Shown here: piece after piece, positions 18,001 to 24,000 of the stretch | How the letters are laid out: each line of letters begins with the position of its first letter | Numbering within the stretch: the stretch's first letter is position 1 | Source: a plasmid | DNA: 64,000 nucleotides | NCBI RefSeq assembly: GCF_053078305.1 | Contig: NZ_CP166875.1 | Direction: 5' to 3' (one strand) | Made by a program: the position numbers

Positions 18001-21000
18001 AACACACCGTCATCCTGACCGGCAGTGCCTTGCCAATGTTAAAACTGGCTGAAAAACTGCCTACGCGCTGGCTCCATGTATCCACACTACTCTGACTTGG
18101 TCTGGCTGCATCAAGCTGCCGAAATATGCTTTCCCGTACATCACCGTCCTCCAGATACACCATTGTCACCAGTGCTGGCAGGTTTTTCGGGTAAAAAAAA
18201 TTAAACTGCCAGTGGTCATAAGGCAGCTTCTGCCCCCATTGATCCATACCGTCGCCCAACAGCGTCTTCACGCCAGCCCTACGGTCATGGCAGCCGACAG
18301 CCAGCATTACGCCCACTATCACGCCCACCATCAGCGGTAATCGTCTCATTCCTGCCTCCTCAGAACAGTCCGTCCAGCGCATCCGCGTTTACCCGCGCCC
18401 GCTCTTCCCACTGCTGCTGGTCGTCCATCCGCCACACCGTCCGCACCCAGCCTTTGCCCGGTGCCATCGGCCACACGAACGAGCGTTCGTCAGTCGGAGC
18501 ATAGTTATTTCGCAGAAAAACTTCTCCCGAGGACGGACTCACCCACAGGCTCAAGTCTGAGTCGATGTTCCAGTTCGCCGAGCAATGCAGGTAACGCCCG
18601 ATGGTCCGCATATCCTCCGCCGTGAAGCCCTCAGGCTCCGCGCCACGCCGGACAGCACGCCCCTGAGCTATGGCTTTGTCACACAGGGGAAGCAGTTCTG
18701 ACGGCAACGCCAGCTCTTTGTTACTGCTGAGTATCGGAGTAAACACAGCCCCGGCGTCTTGTGCCGCATCCAGCATCACCCACAAACTCACCTTCTCCCA
18801 GTCGTTCGGCACATCCCTGCGCGTCATAAACACTGCCGCGCCCACTTTCTTCTCAAAAATAGACGCACGCGCCTTGTTCTGATTGACCAGTGGCCACGAA
18901 ATCATTTTCGTCTCCACCTCACCGTGCGGCATCAGGTACTTCAGCGCCGGCAGTGAGTACAGCACCTGACGCATCTTCTCCGCCTTACGGTACACCTCCG
19001 TCTGCATTTCATCCGCGCTGTCGCGCGTCACCTCAAAATCCGGCATCGTCAGCAGGGAGATTTCATCCTCTCCTGCGTTATAGCCCCCGCCAATGTCCGA
19101 GTGCGCCCCCGGCAGCGCCAGCTCCGGCCACATCCCCGCGATGCTGTTCAGGCTGAAGTTATACCGACACTCATGCATCGCGCTAATCTGAAACACCTTC
19201 TGCGCCACTGAAGGACGCAGTTCGAGATTCACCCCGGGATTGCTGCGTCCGTTAACGTCGTAGAAGTTCAACAGGCTCCCGATAGCCGCCACTGTGTCAA
19301 ACAGCCCTAAAAAGCGCACCTCTCCCGCCAGTTTCCCGTGGTGCCCGGTCAGGTCTGTCCCTTTGTCTATTGCCGCCGCTATCGCCGCATCCTGGTTCAT
19401 CACCCGGTTGGCAAAATGCCGTGCAGCCGCCGCGCCGCGGCTGAATCCGAACACGTCAAACTGCACCTTCGCAATCGCCACTTTGTCACGATTAAGTTTG
19501 ATAAAGCGGGTCAGTTCTGCGCTGATCTTCTCCAGTGCTTCATCGGTCTTTGTCACCACCCCTTCAAACTGTCGGATAAGGCTGCTGCCCAGCGCTTTAC
19601 CCAGTATCGAATCACTTTCTCCGTCTGCCGTCCCGATGCCGCTGATATAGGCTTTGACCTGCGCCTCAGTCTCGCTGTCGTTAAGTTCATCGCTTTGCTG
19701 ATAAAGATCGAACAGCCGGGAAATATTAGTGTGGCCGCCCTGCCAGCTTGCATTACCCAGCCCAGCTCTGGCGCGCTTTTCATACTTCTCACATGCCCTA
19801 GCCCGCTCCTCGTCAACCAGATTGGCACAGTGGGCATATGCCAGCCGTAGATCGTCTGCGTTCGCCCGGTTATTCCCCGTCCCGTCAAAGAACACCCCCA
19901 CCGTCAGCGTTATCCCCCTGACCGGCACCCGCCGACACTGGATGGTTTTAAAACTGTTGTGTATGCTGGTTCGATGGGTACTGTCCCCAATAATTTCATA
20001 CCGGTAATAACAGGTATCGCCCGGCACATTTTTTTCATCTTCTTCGACCATAAAAATCCTTATTTATCTGAAAGATAAAATCAGTAGCAAAATCCTTCGG
20101 GACTTTTTTACATCTGCCTGTTAGACGTATTTACCATAATCCCTTAATTGTACGCACCGCAGAAACGCGCTCAGCGCGATTCTGGCGCAAAAACCGCAAA
20201 AATAGATGTTTTCCCCCGGGTAAACCGGAAAAATGCGTCAGGATTGTTTTCATGGCACTGCATGACTATGCATGAAACTGAATGGCGATCGGTTTGGGCG
20301 CGCCTGATGCCCATAAGGCGCATTTTCGGACGTTTTCAGCCCTGATGAGAAGAAATCAGACAGTAGTTACAGACGAGTCGTGAGCGATTCACCCCGGGAG
20401 TCATCAGCGAGTCATCCAGTATTTTTCCTCGCGACTCTCTGGCGACTCGCTTTTTCTGAACACCAGAGAGACAGTGTGTTGAGTCATCGATAAATCACCG
20501 ACGACTCGTTGCCGAATCATCCAGTAGTCGCCGACAACTCGCTTTTGTATAAATCTGAATAAAAAAATATATTTTTCAAACCATAACAACATGATTTAAA
20601 AAGCAAATCAGAAAAAAGTTGGTTTTGCGTGGGGGGTGGGCATCCGGGGCATGAGAACAGACTCGCGTTTTTCTGGAGAAACTGCGGGGATTTTTGATTA
20701 AACAATACTCACCGCAGAGCGGAATTTTATGCAACGCCGGCTGTGCGGCACAGGGATTTTTAATCCCCAGCATGGCAGAGGGTACAGATGACGGTTCCCG
20801 TCTGGCGTTTTCGTGGGTGCCGGTTGTCAAAAAATACCAGCGCGATCGGTCGAAGGATAAGCGCAGATTAATCAGTGATGATTGAGCGCGAATCTGACAA
20901 CAAGTATAGCGACACAGCAACAAAAAAGACGCCAGAAACGCGCTCAGAGGCTTTGTAACGCGATTTTTTACATGAGGCAATGGTTTCGCTTTGAGGCGTT

Positions 21001-24000
21001 CAGCCGTGTTCAGGGCGCGATTCTGGTACATACCTGACTGTAATCATCCCTACGAACTACTCTTTGCACCAGAAACGCGCAGGAGTGTTTTAGCGTGTCT
21101 CCGGCGTGATGTCGAGTTGTGCGGTAATGAGTGAGCGAAAAAAATCCCCTGGATTACAGGGGGAACCCATGATCAGACTTTGAAGTTTATTTGTTATTTG
21201 ATGGAATGAGCACGAATCCCGGAGATGACGTTCAGGTGGCAGGAAACGCGCTCAGACGCTTTCTAACGCACTTTTTTGCATTGGGCAATGGTTTTGTATG
21301 TTTTGGTGGGTTCAGGCCGTCAGAGACGTTTTGAGCGCGTTTCTGGCGCTTGCTGCTACTGCCAAACCATCCCCATGGCCAGTTGATGCCAGAAACGCGC
21401 AGGAATTTTGTAGCGCGTCTCCGGTCCCTGATCAATGAATTCCCTGTCATTAACATGCGTTTACCCGGAAACGCGCCCTGATGTTCTATCGTATCGCGGG
21501 AACGGTGTCGAGGGTGTCGGGGCAAAGCCCTGACCAGGTGGTAATCGTATAGCCGTGCGTGCGCGGTTATACGATTACACATCCTGTCCCGGAATCAGGA
21601 TTGTTTTTCGCGCACAACTGCGGCAAATTCACCCCGTTGCGATTGCAACAATGGAAATATCAAAACTACGAGAATTAATTAGCCATTTGCTACCCCTTGG
21701 CCTGGCCTCCACCAGTCACGGGGGATTTTTTCGCCTGTTCTGATTGTCTTTTGCTGATGGTTACGGCAGATTGGAAAAGAGCGCATTTGTGGTGCTCTCT
21801 CCAAAATAATATTTCTCATTACTCAAACTCTGATGGCTTCCCCCTGTAATCCAGGGGGATTTTTTAATTTATCGCTATGCTTCGTAATTCATTCAGAATA
21901 CAGACAGTATGGTTAATCAGTTTTTCATCATTTTTTCGGTGTTTGCCCTATCCTGCATCAGAACGCTAAAAACAGGAATCTCTTTATGACGAATCCTCCA
22001 TTTCAGGATTTTTTATGTGGCGTCTACTACATGCGATCCGTTTTGGTGAACCGTTAGTTATATATTGGTTATATGTTAGTTATATCTTAGTTATACTTTT
22101 GCTGCGCGTCAGTTACAGAGGCGTTTTGAGGGTAAATTCTGGAGGCACGTGACCGACTGTATACAAAATGCTGGCGCATTTTGATACGTCGACGTGCCAA
22201 AGGGGACGCCCCTTTGAAACCCCGTCAGAATTAAAACCGGCCTGTCTTTTTACAATATTCAGCTCTGGCTATACACCAACTTATATTTTCTCCTTTGGCA
22301 TAATGAAGCGCATCATTCCATTTTTTCCATGCTCCAATGTAATCACCTTCACGCTCCAGTCTGACAGCTTCGTTTGCGGGTGAAAAATATTTATTTTCTA
22401 AATAAATTGCTTTGTCCTGATTCATACTCGTATTTGTATTTTTATTGGATTTAGAAAGAGCGAGCCTGTCGGGTTAATACATATTGGCATGACTGTTGAT
22501 ATATCAGCCCAACTGCACGCTCGTAATCGTTTTAACGTGATTTTCGCAACATGGCAATCCGGGTTCATCTGTCCGGTAATCAATAAAAACCGTGCGAAAA
22601 ACGGGACAGGATGTGGCCATTAATGCTAATGTATGCATACATTAGTATTAATGGCCCTGACAAATACCAGGCATCCGGTCTCAGGATGCCTTGATTCTTG
22701 CCTGGTAGATGCGCTTTACCCGTTCAATTTCTGCCAGCGTTGCGGACCAGTGTAGTTCGGCGGCATGACGATATCTGGCAGCCATTTTTTCCACCATCTC
22801 CGGATTGCTGTCCGCGCTGCGGTGCTGACGCCCCTTCTCCCCAAAAACTTCAACAACCAGCCACTGGCTTCCTGTTCTGCCGAACAATGCCTTGCACAAA
22901 CGTCTCACAGTCAGCGGGGTTAAATCTGGATCGGGATCGTAGGCAGTGGTAGCAAAAATAAAGCGCAGCATTTCTGATGTCTTGTAACGCTTTACGGCAG
23001 CTGCCAGACGTGCGGCGCGTTGGGGTGCTTCCCAGCGGTCGTCACTGTAATTAGCAACTTCAGCCAGATAATCCTTTTCAAGGTTTTCAGCCGTGTAACA
23101 CCTGCCGCCTAAAAAAAACCGCATGGCCTCCCTGGTTTTGTCTCTCACATATCATCCCTCATTAATGCTAATGTATGCATACATTAGCATTAATATCTGA
23201 CAGCAACAAGCGGCGAAGACTACCCCTAATCAAGTACATTTCTTGCATTGTACTATTTCATGCCCTACAATGTAGTAACGTACCTATATACATCAAAAGG
23301 CAACAGCATGAAGATTACAACCCTATCCAGTCGGGAACTTAATCAAGATGTAACTCGAGCCAAACGCGCCACGAATTATGGTCCAGTATTTATTACTGAT
23401 CGGGGTAAAACCGCACATGTACTTCTTAGTATCGAAGAATACCGAAAATTGACGCAACAACGACGAACTCTCATTGACATTCTGGCGATGCCCGATGCTG
23501 ATGCAGTTGAATTTGAACCGCCTCGTATTACGGTTAGTTTAAAACCTGCGGAGTTTTTATAGTGTATATTCTTGATACTAATGTTATCTCTGAGCTACGG
23601 AAGGCTCGGACAGGACGTATAGATAATAATGTTGCAAAATGGGCATTGCATACAGATGCGGCAGATTTCTTTATTTCTGTTATTTCCATAATGGAACTTG
23701 AACAGGGAATATTACAAGTTGAACGTCGAGATATGCGACAAGGGATTATGCTACGTTCTTGGATGGATCAGCATGTGTTACCAGCGTTTTCTGATAAGAT
23801 ACTTCCTGTAGATACTGCGGTTGCATTACGTTGTTCTCGTTTACATGTTCCCGACAGGCGCAGTGAACGAGACGCATTGATCGCAGCAACGGCGCTGGTA
23901 CATGGGATGACGGTTGTAACCAGAAATGTTGGTGATTTTGAATTAACCGGAGTATCAATTATTAATCCCTGGGCTTGATATCGCTTCCCTTCTTCTAGGG

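What the first reader, a model, noticed from the sequence alone, without database searches (positions are those of the whole stretch)
20052..22230. 2.2-kb stretch without convincing genes, packed with paralogous GC-rich repeats and outward-facing identical hairpins
Between the phospholipase start and the next plausible gene there is no ORF with a credible RBS or codon usage. Instead there are several units sharing cagaaacgcgc(tcag) / gcgcgtttctg cores, two of them forming a tandem duplication of about 300 bp (20935/21070 and 21245/21395). There are also direct repeats of gactcg and catccagta (20400-20560) and two copies of a perfect hairpin (cccctggattacaggggg at 21146, its reverse complement at 21840), each followed by a T-run pointing outward, so the 680-bp interval between them looks like a divergently terminated unit. 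The same core motif recurs at 32905-32950. This could be a small-RNA locus, a protein-binding array or a decayed element.
Basis: seen in the sequence. Interest (0 to 1): 0.5.

Follow-up and report, generated by a model that had tools for sequence, protein, structure and literature searches.

The report
Gene-free plasmid transfer and maintenance sites
This 2.2-kb "empty" stretch of an E. coli plasmid is a patchwork of non-coding working sites borrowed from small plasmids: a dimer-resolution site, two or three "orphan" origins of conjugative transfer, duplicated hairpins that probably prime DNA synthesis, and two broken gene remnants, so it is a known kind of thing, though unusually dense.

Summary
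The stretch has no intact gene, the repeats are real and far above chance, and the two outward-facing hairpins exist. The small-RNA reading is not supported.

The block from 20129 to about 22615 is small-plasmid DNA inside a large F-type STEC plasmid. It contains:
- A ColE1-type cer site. Its own hairpin is the first "cagaaacgcgc" unit, and the recurrence near 32905-32950 is a second cer site.
- An orphan F-type oriT. The "gactcg" repeats are nine phased GANTC motifs where F-like oriTs carry TraM sites.
- The last 37 codons of a rolling-circle Rep_1 gene.
- Two about 190-bp hairpin units, the "tandem duplication". In rolling-circle plasmids these units lie directly 3' of rep on the same strand. 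They also occur in ColE1-type pPCP1 and in a RepL plasmid. My best inference is a single-strand initiation origin.
- An orphan I-complex (B/O/K-type) oriT, 98.8% identical to the site beside nikA-nikB in a conjugative plasmid.
- A terminator pair, one being an inverted copy of the other.
- A truncated 75-aa ORF.
- An 85-bp candidate third oriT.

Known kind: relaxase-less "pOriT", pBuzz-like. Interest is low to moderate.

The parts
20052..20128 (-). Upstream region of the Tle1-like phospholipase gene (18360-20051, minus strand). It belongs to the neighbouring module, not to the small-plasmid block.
   Evidence: Matches to the 7-9 kb colicin plasmids begin at query base 78, which is window 20129. 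Only the large STEC plasmids cover bases 1-77. The gene is annotated in the 98%-identical plasmid.
20129..20345 (-). cer-type multimer resolution site. The XerC/XerD core is at 20130-20158. A TGCATGACTATGCA palindrome near 20260-20273 aligns with the conserved TGCATAG-TATGCAT block of ColE1 cer. By position this is the ArgR box and Pcer region.
   Evidence: The core matches GGTGCGTACAA-N8-TTATGGTAAA exactly, with 0 expected by chance. The site aligns over its full length with cer of a ColE1 plasmid, with pPCP1 and with another colicin plasmid. Query bases 78-290 hit hundreds of small ColE1-type plasmids. The cer, Rcd and Pcer architecture is as described in PMC5935869.
20346..20770 (+). Orphan F-type oriT. 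It has a GANTC array at 20375-20518, an AT-rich stretch, a nic-proximal block at 20593-20645 (AAATCAGAAAAAAGTTGGTTTTGCGTGGGGGGT|GGGC) and a conserved 3' part running to about 20770. The nick is predicted between 20637 and 20638 on the + strand, with the leading direction to the right.
   Evidence: Bases 20528-20639 match F-like conjugative plasmids between traM and the SLT transglycosylase gene. Alignment with IncF locus L017 shows AAATCAGCAAAAACTTGTTTTTGCGTGGGGTGTGGTGC against the window sequence. The traM side lies to the left. GANTC enrichment is shown. GANTC is the motif bound by pED208 TraM (PMC3159463). Small plasmids with an F-type orphan oriT are mobilised by F (PMC9282650).
20772..20885 (+). 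Remnant of a rolling-circle replication gene: the last 37 codons plus the stop of a Rep_1-family Rep.
   Evidence: 35 of 37 residues are identical to the C-terminus of the 332-aa Rep of plasmid L011, E = 4e-23. That Rep is Pfam Rep_1, E = 3.6e-84. Nucleotide homology 20770-21104 matches L011 1832-2185.
20929..21112 (+). Hairpin unit 1. The long hairpin has arms at 20932-20948 and 21010-21026. The short hairpin is at 21069-21104. Candidate single-strand initiation site (sso/ssi).
   Evidence: In plasmid L011, homology to this stretch runs on directly from the 3' end of rep (L011 1832-2185).
21139..21213 (-). Inverted copy of 21792-21865. It includes a minus-strand terminator-like hairpin at 21162-21146 followed by a T-run.
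   Evidence: (I1).
21237..21432 (+). Hairpin unit 2. The long hairpin has arms at 21240-21256 and 21330-21346. The short hairpin is at 21389-21424. Candidate sso/ssi.
   Evidence: The long hairpin folds at -45.1 kcal/mol, z = -3.15. Twelve homologues align with 69% mean column identity and long invariant blocks. In rolling-circle plasmids L008, L011, L012, L014 and L015 the unit lies directly downstream of rep on the same strand. It also occurs in pPCP1 and in a RepL plasmid.
21465..21500 (+). Third, degenerate copy of the short hairpin (CCGGAAACGCGC...).
   Evidence: family D2, 69%. Plasmid L008 has one copy fewer here.
21512..21591 (+). Orphan I-complex (B/O/K-type, R64-like) oriT. It has a conserved block GTCGGGGCAAAGCCCTGACCAGG, an 18-nt inverted repeat at 21541-21578 and the nick region ACATCCTG|TCCC. 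The nick is predicted between 21586 and 21587 on the + strand, with the leading direction to the right.
   Evidence: 79 of 80 bases are identical to an IncI-gamma/K1 plasmid, where the site lies 16 bp upstream of the mobA(nikA)-relaxase operon. The inverted repeat folds at -33.5 kcal/mol, z = -7.0. Across alleles the repeat arms change but stay complementary, while the flanks are invariant. The site is found in 3612 plasmid records. The nick position comes from my recollection of R64 and RP4 work.
21593..21736 (.). Segment of unknown role on the leading side of the oriT. It is shared with pPCP1, where it lies inverted just upstream of rop.
   Evidence: 78% identity over 145 nt.
21839..21865 (+). 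Plus-strand terminator-like hairpin with a T-run. It is the partner of the inverted copy at 21146-21162.
21867..21931 (-). 3' remnant of a 75-aa ORF that is intact in rolling-circle plasmids. It is cut here by a 228-bp deletion at 21931/21932.
   Evidence: tblastn gives 81% identity over the C-terminal 27 residues, and the nucleotide alignment shows the clean deletion. The ORF is annotated in L011 and L012.
22140..22229 (-). Candidate third orphan oriT: an 85-bp element with two hairpins (CAAAATGC..GCATTTTG and CAAAGGGG..CCCCTTTG). Its orientation is inferred to be opposite to that of the other two oriTs.
   Evidence: It is 77-84% identical to plasmids of Pseudomonas syringae, P. aeruginosa and P. 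fluorescens, Salmonella and Klebsiella. In two of these it lies directly upstream of a NikA-like gene (Pfam PF21983, E = 1.8e-9). That gene is followed by a large LPD7 protein with a weak relaxase N-terminus, on plasmids typed MOBP / MPF_T.

Best explanation
The stretch is a mosaic of cis-acting plasmid sites and gene remnants. It was assembled by recombination among small ColE1-type and rolling-circle (pBuzz / Col(MP18)-like) plasmids and is now carried in a large F-type STEC plasmid. It needs no genes of its own because every part works through proteins supplied in trans.

1. cer. XerC/XerD, with ArgR and PepA, resolve plasmid multimers at cer.

2. Transfer origins. Two oriTs are identifiable: F-type (MOBF) and I-complex B/O/K-type (MOBP, NikA/NikB). 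A third is probable, from the NikA-like / LPD7-relaxase group. A co-resident conjugative plasmid's relaxase can nick the + strand at the first two, at about 20637/8 and 21586/7, and export the replicon. This is 'relaxase-in-trans' hitch-hiking.

3. Hairpin units. The duplicated units with CCAGAAACGCGC / GCGCGTTTCTGG arms are most likely single-strand initiation sites (sso/ssi). When the strand is single-stranded, either displaced in rolling-circle replication or arriving in a recipient, they would fold and recruit host priming enzymes to start the complementary strand. They sit just 5' of the I-type nick. That places them at the 3' end of the transferred strand, from which one primer can copy nearly the whole molecule.

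4. Terminators. The two outward-facing hairpins are one terminator and its inverted duplicate, left by the rearrangement that duplicated the unit.

Shown here: sequence identity and homology of cer, of both oriTs and of the rep and ORF remnants, and the context and orientation of the units.

Inferred: nick positions, TraM binding at the GANTC array, the priming function and active strand of the units, and the oriT nature of the third element.
For: Origin of the block. It recurs in 7.3-8.9 kb colicin plasmids and in 2-4 kb rolling-circle plasmids. In the window and in L001, 20129-22615 is collinear with rolling-circle plasmid L011, apart from the missing rep body, a duplication and a deletion.

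cer. Exact core, and full-length alignment with ColE1 cer.

I-complex oriT. 98.8% identity to the site next to nikA-nikB. The inverted repeat varies between alleles but stays complementary.

F-type oriT. Homology to the traM-SLT intergenic nic region. Nine phased GANTC motifs lie on the traM-proximal side.

rep remnant..

Units. In 5 of 5 rolling-circle plasmids examined the unit is directly 3' of rep and on the same strand. In 6 of 8 plasmids that carry both, the unit has the same orientation as the adjacent nicked strand. A conserved CCTTGTATTTATACT motif on the rep-sense strand upstream of rep fits a dso nick on that strand. The unit is kept at 72-80% identity on three unrelated replicon types: Rep_1 rolling-circle, ColE1-type pPCP1 and RepL. 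This argues for a function that depends on host factors rather than on the replicon. The predicted helices pair in 90% and 75% of cells.

Precedents in the literature. pBuzz and orphan-oriT plasmids mobilised in trans (PMC9282650; PMC7448864). The pOriT class, and an R64-related oriT in ColE1-like plasmids (PMC10123127). ColE1 ssiA and ssiB primosome sites (PMC3167613).
Against: Nothing has been tested for function.

F-type nic region. It differs from F at a base next to the nick (GGGGGGT against GGGGTGT) and after it (GGGCAT against GGTGCT), so it may be weak or have a different specificity. The closely related host plasmid has an R100-type oriT with only one GANTC, so it is not the cognate helper. 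No conjugative plasmid with a similar GANTC array was found.

Units. The helices show no covariation above shuffled controls, because the arms are nearly invariant. Wobble-pair asymmetry is contradictory: the long hairpin favours the + strand and the short hairpin favours the - strand. Folding energies do not favour either strand. There is no detectable similarity to phage origins, the F leading region or ColE1. In pPCP1 the + strand of the unit is the leading-strand template, which is not where a vegetative lagging-strand ssi would act.

Third oriT. The case rests on position alone.
Confidence: 0.8

Rival explanations
1. The hairpin units are double-stranded protein-binding sites, not single-strand origins. 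The motif CCAGAAACGCGC occurs as inverted pairs (A / A', B / B'). These pairs could bind a dimeric protein, for example a relaxosome accessory factor of the adjacent oriT or a host nucleoid protein, and so extend the oriT.
For: The arms are conserved as primary sequence with no compensatory change. That pattern is what a sequence-specific binding site shows. The same 11-mer occurs in the cer hairpin next to the XerC site. The units usually abut an oriT.
Against: pPCP1 keeps a unit but none of the I-type oriT. In the RepL plasmid L013 and in the 1597-bp plasmid L009 the unit and the oriT are in opposite orientation. In conjugative I-complex plasmids the oriT homology stops at 80 bp and nikA takes the place of the units, so the cognate relaxosome does not need them. 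The fixed position and orientation just after rep in rolling-circle plasmids fits an sso better.
Confidence: 0.2
2. The interval between the two terminators (about 21163-21838) is a transcription unit for non-coding RNA. One candidate is a leftward transcript from the former nikA promoter inside the oriT, running antisense through unit 2 to the minus-strand terminator.
For: The two terminator-like hairpins do face outward. In I-complex plasmids the nikA operon starts 16 bp from the conserved 80 bp, so a leftward promoter may survive. The short hairpin pairs better in the minus-strand sense: two A-C mismatches become G-U pairs.
Against: There is no Rfam hit. No sigma-70-like promoter was found within 20000-22700 apart from one at 22361. 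The left terminator is absent from single-unit relatives such as L011, so the 'unit' is a by-product of rearrangement. The interior is fully accounted for by elements with other contexts.
Confidence: 0.12
3. The whole stretch is decaying junk left by plasmid cointegration, with no current function.
For: It contains two truncated genes and a mutated F-type nic base. It sits in a large plasmid that has its own oriT and its own transfer genes.
Against: The same modules are kept on many independent small plasmids whose only route of spread would be these sites. The I-type oriT is 98.8% identical to a working-context copy. The cer core is perfect. The unit is conserved at 72-80% across replicon types while its flanks are not alignable.
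Confidence: 0.08

Closest known systems
Relaxase-less 'pOriT' plasmids and pBuzz-type rolling-circle plasmids with orphan oriTs (Moran & Hall 2019, cited in PMC9282650 and PMC7448864; Ares-Arroyo et al. 2023, PMC10123127)
   Same: Non-coding oriT copies of conjugative-plasmid type (I1/B/O and F) sit on small plasmids that lack a relaxase. Several oriTs can occur on one replicon. They are associated with a Rep_1 rolling-circle replicon and with cer. Plasmid L008 has two inverted I-type oriTs, like pBuzz.
   Different: Here the module has been captured first by ColE1-type colicin plasmids and then by a 130-kb F-type virulence plasmid. The rep gene is reduced to 37 codons. Up to three oriT types from different relaxase families lie within 2.1 kb. 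I could not read the pBuzz paper itself.
ColE1 cer / Rcd multimer resolution site
   Same: Identical XerC/XerD core, about 200 bp of alignable accessory sequence, and the core-adjacent hairpin (PMC5935869).
   Different: The accessory sequence has diverged from ColE1 itself. Two cer-like sites lie in inverted orientation 12.8 kb apart in this plasmid.
oriT of IncI1 R64 and the I-complex (B/O, K, Z) with NikA/NikB
   Same: Conserved GGGGC-AGCCCTGACCAGG block, an allele-specific inverted repeat and the ACATCCTGTCC nick region. The site is 98.8% identical to a K1-type plasmid.
   Different: There is no nikA or nikB. Hairpin units occupy the place of nikA.
F-family oriT (TraI nic site, IHF, TraY and TraM sites)
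   Same: The nic-proximal sequence and upstream inverted repeat are homologous to those of F and R100. The orientation relative to traM and gene X is the same. An array of short motifs sits where the sbm sites lie.
   Different: There are base changes at and after the nick. The array uses GANTC, the pED208 TraM motif (PMC3159463), with 11-12 bp spacing, not the F or R100 motif. No tra genes are adjacent.
Single-strand origins and initiation sites: the sso of rolling-circle plasmids, and the ssiA/ssiB primosome assembly sites of ColE1 and pBR322
   Same: A long, imperfect, orientation-locked hairpin in a non-coding stretch next to rep. It is portable between replicons. Its position 5' of an oriT nick on the nicked strand recalls the pBR322 H-strand factor-Y site; that point is from my own recollection. 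ssiB is mentioned in PMC3167613.
   Different: There is no sequence similarity to ColE1, F or phage origins. The priming enzyme is unknown and the active strand is unresolved. A conserved TAGCG(T/C) in the short hairpin resembles the CS-6 motif of Gram-positive ssoA (recollection), but that is only a 6-mer.

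Membership tests
cer-type Xer multimer resolution site | 11-bp XerC and XerD half-sites separated by a 6-8 bp central region, matching the ColE1 core | tested here: met
   GGTGCGTACAATTAAGGGATTATGGTAAA at 20130-20158 (minus strand), 0 mismatches.
cer-type Xer multimer resolution site | About 180-200 bp of accessory sequence on the XerC side, with an ArgR box | tested here: met
   Aligns column by column with cer of a ColE1 plasmid, pPCP1 and L016, including the conserved TGCATAG-TATGCAT block. 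ArgR and PepA binding were not tested.
cer-type Xer multimer resolution site | Xer/ArgR/PepA-dependent resolution of dimers | not testable with these tools
   Needs a two-site resolution assay.
I-complex (R64 / B/O / K) oriT | Conserved left block, NikA-type inverted repeat, and nick region ACATCCTG/T about 8 bp from the repeat | tested here: met
   79 of 80 bases identical to the site beside the nikA-relaxase operon of an IncI-gamma/K1 plasmid. All three parts are present in every allele compared.
I-complex (R64 / B/O / K) oriT | Cognate nikA and nikB next to the site | tested here: not met
   No such ORF lies between 20052 and 22230. The site is therefore an orphan oriT. That is a recognised class and does not disqualify the site itself.
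I-complex (R64 / B/O / K) oriT | Strand-specific nicking and mobilisation by a helper plasmid | not testable with these tools
   Needs a mating assay and nick mapping.
F-family oriT | TraI recognition and nick sequence TTTGCGT(G/A)G(G/T)GTGT|GGTGC with an upstream inverted repeat | tested here: inconclusive
   The window has TTTTGCGTGGGGGGT-GGGCAT. The homology is clear, but one base before the nick and three after it differ from F. Sister small plasmids carry exact F-type or R100-type cores.
F-family oriT | TraM (sbm), TraY and IHF sites on the traM-proximal side | tested here: inconclusive
   Nine GANTC motifs with 11-12 bp phasing lie in the right place. GANTC is the pED208 TraM motif. The spacing differs from the crystallised sbmA, and no cognate plasmid was found.
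Single-strand origin (sso/ssi) | Non-coding, with extensive intrastrand pairing | tested here: met
   Long hairpins fold at -36.7 and -45.1 kcal/mol, z = -2.3 and -3.2. Cells pair in 89.7% and 74.8% of cases across 12 homologues, against 22-51% when the partner is slid. There is no covariation, because the arms are invariant.
Single-strand origin (sso/ssi) | Fixed orientation relative to the strand that becomes single-stranded | tested here: met
   Same strand as rep, and directly 3' of it, in 5 of 5 rolling-circle plasmids. That the rep-sense strand is the displaced one is inferred.
Single-strand origin (sso/ssi) | Sequence relationship to a characterised ssi class (phiX174, G4, Frpo, ssoA) | tested here: not met
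   No phage match at E of 1 or below. No match to the F-like leading region or to ColE1. No Rfam hit.
Single-strand origin (sso/ssi) | Priming of complementary-strand synthesis on ssDNA | not testable with these tools
   Needs an M13 delta-ori rescue assay or an ssDNA accumulation assay.
REP / ERIC / MITE-type dispersed repeats | Many copies dispersed in chromosomes | tested here: not met
   The unit occurs in 52 of 5426 E. coli genomes, with 84 of 85 places on plasmids. A pattern scan of 100,044 species genomes found only pPCP1 and plasmid-like contigs.
Known non-coding RNA families | Match to an Rfam covariance model | tested here: not met
   Within 17000-36000, at E of 1 or below, only RNAI at 17466-17571 is credible. 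Nothing falls in 20052-22230.

The most novel reading that the evidence does not exclude
The A/A'-B/B' hairpin unit may be an undescribed family of single-strand initiation origin, specific to small enterobacterial plasmids. It would travel fused to an oriT as a portable 'nick here, prime here' cassette. In this reading the 2.1-kb block is a universal hitch-hiking hub, able to use three unrelated relaxase systems: F-type, I-complex, and a NikA-like / LPD7 group shared with Pseudomonas plasmids.
Probability: 0.3. Interest if true: 0.45.

Novelty: new member of a known kind. Interest (0 to 1): 0.3.

Why it matters
It shows why a long "gene desert" on a virulence plasmid is not empty. It concentrates the cis sites that let DNA be resolved, nicked, exported and re-primed by machinery encoded elsewhere.

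Practical points:
- Annotation pipelines leave all of this blank, and some typing tools call such plasmids non-mobilizable.
- A cluster of orphan oriTs of different relaxase families widens the set of helper plasmids that could move a replicon or a cointegrate carrying it. Here that includes a Shiga-toxigenic E. coli haemolysin plasmid.
- The conserved hairpin unit is a cheap, testable candidate for the still poorly known lagging-strand origins of Gram-negative rolling-circle plasmids.

Tried and rejected
- Rfam scan of 17-36 kb at E of 1 or below: only RNAI, outside the region.
- PHROGs and NCBIfam on the region's ORFs: nothing, apart from the neighbouring ANR gene.
- Phage collection search with the unit: no match.
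- BLAST of the units against the F-like leading region (where Frpo-type sites lie) and against ColE1: nothing. Beyond cer, the only similarity to ColE1 is a 24-bp stretch at the left edge of the oriT.
- Pattern scan of 100,044 species genomes: only pPCP1, two apparently contaminant contigs (L020, L023) and chance hits.
- Strand assignment of the unit by folding energy and by wobble-pair asymmetry and covariation: inconclusive.
- Search for the pC194-type nick CTTGATA in the rolling-circle relatives: one probable chance hit. The conserved CCTTGTATTTATACT motif upstream of rep is the better dso candidate.
- I asked whether the orphan F-type oriT is a copy of the host plasmid's own oriT. It is not: the host's oriT is R100-type with a single GANTC.
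- pBuzz paper and pED208 sequence: not held.
- A MITE or insertion bounded by the 33-nt inverted repeat was considered. I rejected it because the left arm is simply an inverted duplicate of the terminator region that is present once in single-unit relatives.

Full report
**What the window is**

The finding lies in plasmid DNA. The 2179 bases match three large E. coli STEC plasmids over their full length at 97-98% identity. From base 78 onward they match a series of 7.3-8.9 kb colicin plasmids at 93-97%. Of 1195 matching places in complete E. coli genomes, 1185 are on plasmids.

In the best-matching large plasmid the stretch lies between a Tle1-like phospholipase gene and an ANR-family regulator gene, with nothing annotated in it. 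In a 7.5-kb colicin-10-type plasmid the same block lies between an Exc2 lipoprotein gene and the ANR gene, again with nothing annotated. The large relative is a complete IncFII F-type conjugative plasmid that carries the enterohaemolysin operon.

**Check of the observation**

- CAGAAACGCGC (1 mismatch or fewer) occurs 8 times, all within 20160-21476. About 1 is expected, and no shuffle reaches 8.
- The roughly 300-bp tandem duplication is two copies of a ~190-nt unit, 308 bp apart and 71% identical, E = 9e-21.
- The gactcg repeats are nine GANTC motifs between 20375 and 20518. Elsewhere in the window no 160-bp bin has more than three.
- The two perfect hairpins are a 33-nt inverted repeat. They score as a minus-strand terminator at 21162-21146 and a plus-strand terminator at 21839-21859.
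- No ORF in the stretch has a family match.

Two corrections are needed. The unit at 20160 and the recurrence near 32905-32950 are not members of the duplicated family; they are the hairpins of two cer sites. And 20052-20128 belongs to the phospholipase module.

**cer**

At 20130-20158 on the minus strand lies GGTGCGTACAATTAAGGGATTATGGTAAA, an exact ColE1-type XerC/XerD core. A second copy with one mismatch lies at 32946-32974 on the plus strand. The 200 bp next to the first core align over their whole length with cer of a ColE1 plasmid, with pPCP1 and with another colicin plasmid. The alignment includes the conserved TGCATAG-TATGCAT block and the core-adjacent hairpin GATCGCGCTGAACGCG. This is the architecture described for cer, Pcer and Rcd (PMC5935869). 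So the hairpin CAGAAACGCGC-TCA-GCGCGATTCTG at 20160-20184 is a constituent of cer.

**An orphan F-type oriT**

Bases 20528-20639 match about 1900 conjugative F-like plasmids in the short interval between traM and the SLT transglycosylase gene. The alignment shows the classical nic region. An IncF plasmid reads AAATCAGCAAAAACTTGTTTTTGCGTGGGGTGTGGTGC. The window reads AAATCAGAAAAAAGTTGGTTTTGCGTGGGGGGTGGGCAT.

Sister small plasmids carry an exact F-type core (GGGGTGT, L008) or an exact R100-type core (AGTGTGT, L001) in the same frame. traM lies to the left in the conjugative plasmid. The nicked strand is therefore the window's + strand and transfer would lead rightward.

The GANTC array occupies the traM-proximal side, where F-like oriTs carry TraM and TraY sites. 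GANTC is the motif bound by pED208 TraM, with pairs of motifs read by one tetramer (PMC3159463). The array here has 11-12 bp phasing.

That TraM-type proteins bind it is an inference. No conjugative plasmid with a similar array was found. The host plasmid's own oriT is R100-type with a single GANTC. Small plasmids with an F-type orphan oriT have been shown to be mobilised by F without any mob genes (PMC9282650).

**A truncated rolling-circle rep gene**

The + strand at 20772-20885 encodes 37 residues, of which 35 are identical to the C-terminus of the 332-aa Rep of a 3.4-kb plasmid, E = 4e-23. That Rep belongs to Pfam Rep_1. From this point to about 22615 the window is collinear with that rolling-circle plasmid. 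The exceptions are the unit duplication and a 228-bp deletion.

**The duplicated hairpin units**

Each unit has two parts. The first is a long imperfect hairpin whose arms are CCAGAAACGCGCTCAGA and TTTGAGCGCGTTTCTGG. The second is a short hairpin, CCAGAAACGCGC...GCGYGTCTCCGG. A third degenerate short hairpin follows unit 2.

Homologues were found only in small enterobacterial plasmids: 52 of 5426 E. coli genomes, and Yersinia pestis pPCP1. Context is the most informative evidence.

- In five rolling-circle plasmids the unit begins directly after the rep stop codon (53-57 nt in the four where rep is annotated) and is on the rep strand. One of these plasmids carries two tandem copies.
- In most plasmids the unit is followed by the I-type oriT in the same orientation.
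- It also survives, at 72-80% identity, in the ColE1-type plasmid pPCP1 and in a RepL plasmid. So it does not depend on a particular Rep.
- A conserved CCTTGTATTTATACT motif upstream of rep on the rep-sense strand is a plausible double-strand-origin nick. If so, the rep-sense strand, which is the window's + strand, is the displaced one.

The same + strand is the one nicked at both oriTs. All of this fits a single-strand origin: a hairpin that lets host enzymes prime the complementary strand, placed at the 3' end of the transferred strand.

The limits of this inference are real.

- The helix arms are almost invariant, so covariation is no better than in shuffles.
- G-T wobble asymmetry favours the + strand for the long hairpin but the - strand for the short one.
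- Folding energies do not separate the strands.
- There is no similarity to phage origins, to the F leading region or to ColE1.
- In pPCP1 the + strand is the leading-strand template.

I put the sso reading at roughly 0.45. Its main rival is a double-stranded binding-site reading.

**An orphan I-complex oriT**

Bases 21512-21591 are 79/80 identical to an IncI-gamma/K1 plasmid. There they end 16 bp from the start of the mobA(nikA)-relaxase operon, which is transcribed away from the site. The element has three parts: a conserved block, an 18-nt inverted repeat (z = -7.0) and ACATCCTGTCC.

Among a dozen alleles in the fetched loci the two flanks are invariant. The repeat arms differ but remain complementary, as expected for allele-specific NikA recognition. 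From my recollection of R64 and RP4 work, the nick falls after CCTG, at 21586/7 on the + strand. There is no nikA or nikB here; the hairpin units occupy their place.

Orphan R64-related oriTs on ColE1-like and rolling-circle plasmids, and their mobilisation in trans, are documented (PMC9282650; PMC7448864; PMC10123127).

**The outward-facing hairpins**

The right copy (21839-21865) is present once in single-unit relatives, just beyond the stop codon of a 75-aa minus-strand ORF. The left copy is part of a 75-nt inverted duplicate (21139-21213) inserted between the two units. They are therefore one terminator and its rearranged copy, not the designed ends of a transcription unit. The 75-aa ORF itself is cut to its last 21-27 codons by a clean 228-bp deletion at 21931/2.

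**A probable third oriT**

Bases 22140-22229 are 77-84% identical to an element on plasmids of Pseudomonas syringae, P. aeruginosa, P. fluorescens, Salmonella and Klebsiella. In the two examined, it lies directly upstream of a NikA-like gene (PF21983, E = 1.8e-9). A large LPD7-domain protein with a weak relaxase N-terminus follows, on plasmids typed MOBP / MPF_T. Conservation of 85 non-coding bases across such distant hosts, at that position, is what an oriT looks like. This rests on position alone, at about 0.55. The colicin plasmid L001 carries a truncated copy.

**Mechanism and verdict**

The stretch is gene-free because it is built of sites that use trans-acting proteins:
- Xer recombinases at cer;
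- relaxosomes of co-resident conjugative plasmids at the oriTs;
- probably host priming enzymes at the hairpin units.

It is a member of the known class of relaxase-less, oriT-bearing ("pOriT", pBuzz-like) modules, here fossilised inside a large conjugative virulence plasmid. It is denser than usual, and its hairpin unit may be an undescribed sso family. Nothing requires a new kind of system.

Noticed in passing
window 17466-17571 (+): A full-length ColE1-type RNAI (Rfam RF00106, 59.8 bits, above the gathering score) lies about 2.5 kb left of the finding. A ColE1-type replicon, or its remnant, is therefore embedded in the large F-type plasmid. RNAII would run leftward, away from the finding.
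   Followed up: partly
window 32946-32974 (+) and 20130-20158 (-): Two cer-type XerC/XerD cores lie in inverted orientation 12.8 kb apart, each with its accessory sequence. This suggests that at least two small plasmids were incorporated. It also raises the question of whether Xer can invert the segment between them.
   Followed up: partly
window 22618-22655 and 23159-23196: Two near-identical AT-rich palindromes (TTAATGCTAAT...ATTAGCATTAA) flank the 155-aa minus-strand ORF 22681-23148. The second lies upstream of the phd/vapC pair and gave spurious mir-155 Rfam hits. They look like shared operator sites.
   Followed up: no
window 22043-22095: Three to four copies of TTAGTTATAT-like 11-mers form an iteron-like array between the ORF remnant and the candidate third oriT. 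The array is also present in the colicin plasmid L001. Its function is unknown.
   Followed up: no
window 21973-22034; L006 (pPCP1) 2669-2730: A 62-bp segment is 92% identical between this E. coli block and Yersinia pestis pPCP1. It contains a small hairpin with a T-run (AATCCT...AGGATTTTTT). pPCP1 also shares the hairpin unit, a cer-like site and the 21593-21736 segment, so it has drawn on the same pool of modules.
   Followed up: partly
L023 (Amphibacillus jilinensis scaffold NZ_JH976447.1, 9.6 kb) and L020 (Rhizobium wenxiniae contig, 569 bp): These contigs, filed under unrelated species, match pPCP1 and the E. coli small-plasmid unit-plus-oriT module respectively. They look like contamination in the public assemblies.
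   Followed up: partly
L008 (CP125038.1, 2856 bp) 359-451 (+) and 1313-1400 (-): This rolling-circle plasmid carries two inversely oriented I-type oriTs flanking a cer-like region and an F-type oriT. The arrangement resembles that reported for pBuzz. The repeat allele of one of its oriTs is R64-like, unlike the B/O/K-like allele in the window.
   Followed up: partly
window 17645-20051 (-): A Tle1-like T6SS phospholipase effector gene and a DUF2931 gene sit on a plasmid with no T6SS genes nearby, immediately beside the small-plasmid block.
   Followed up: no
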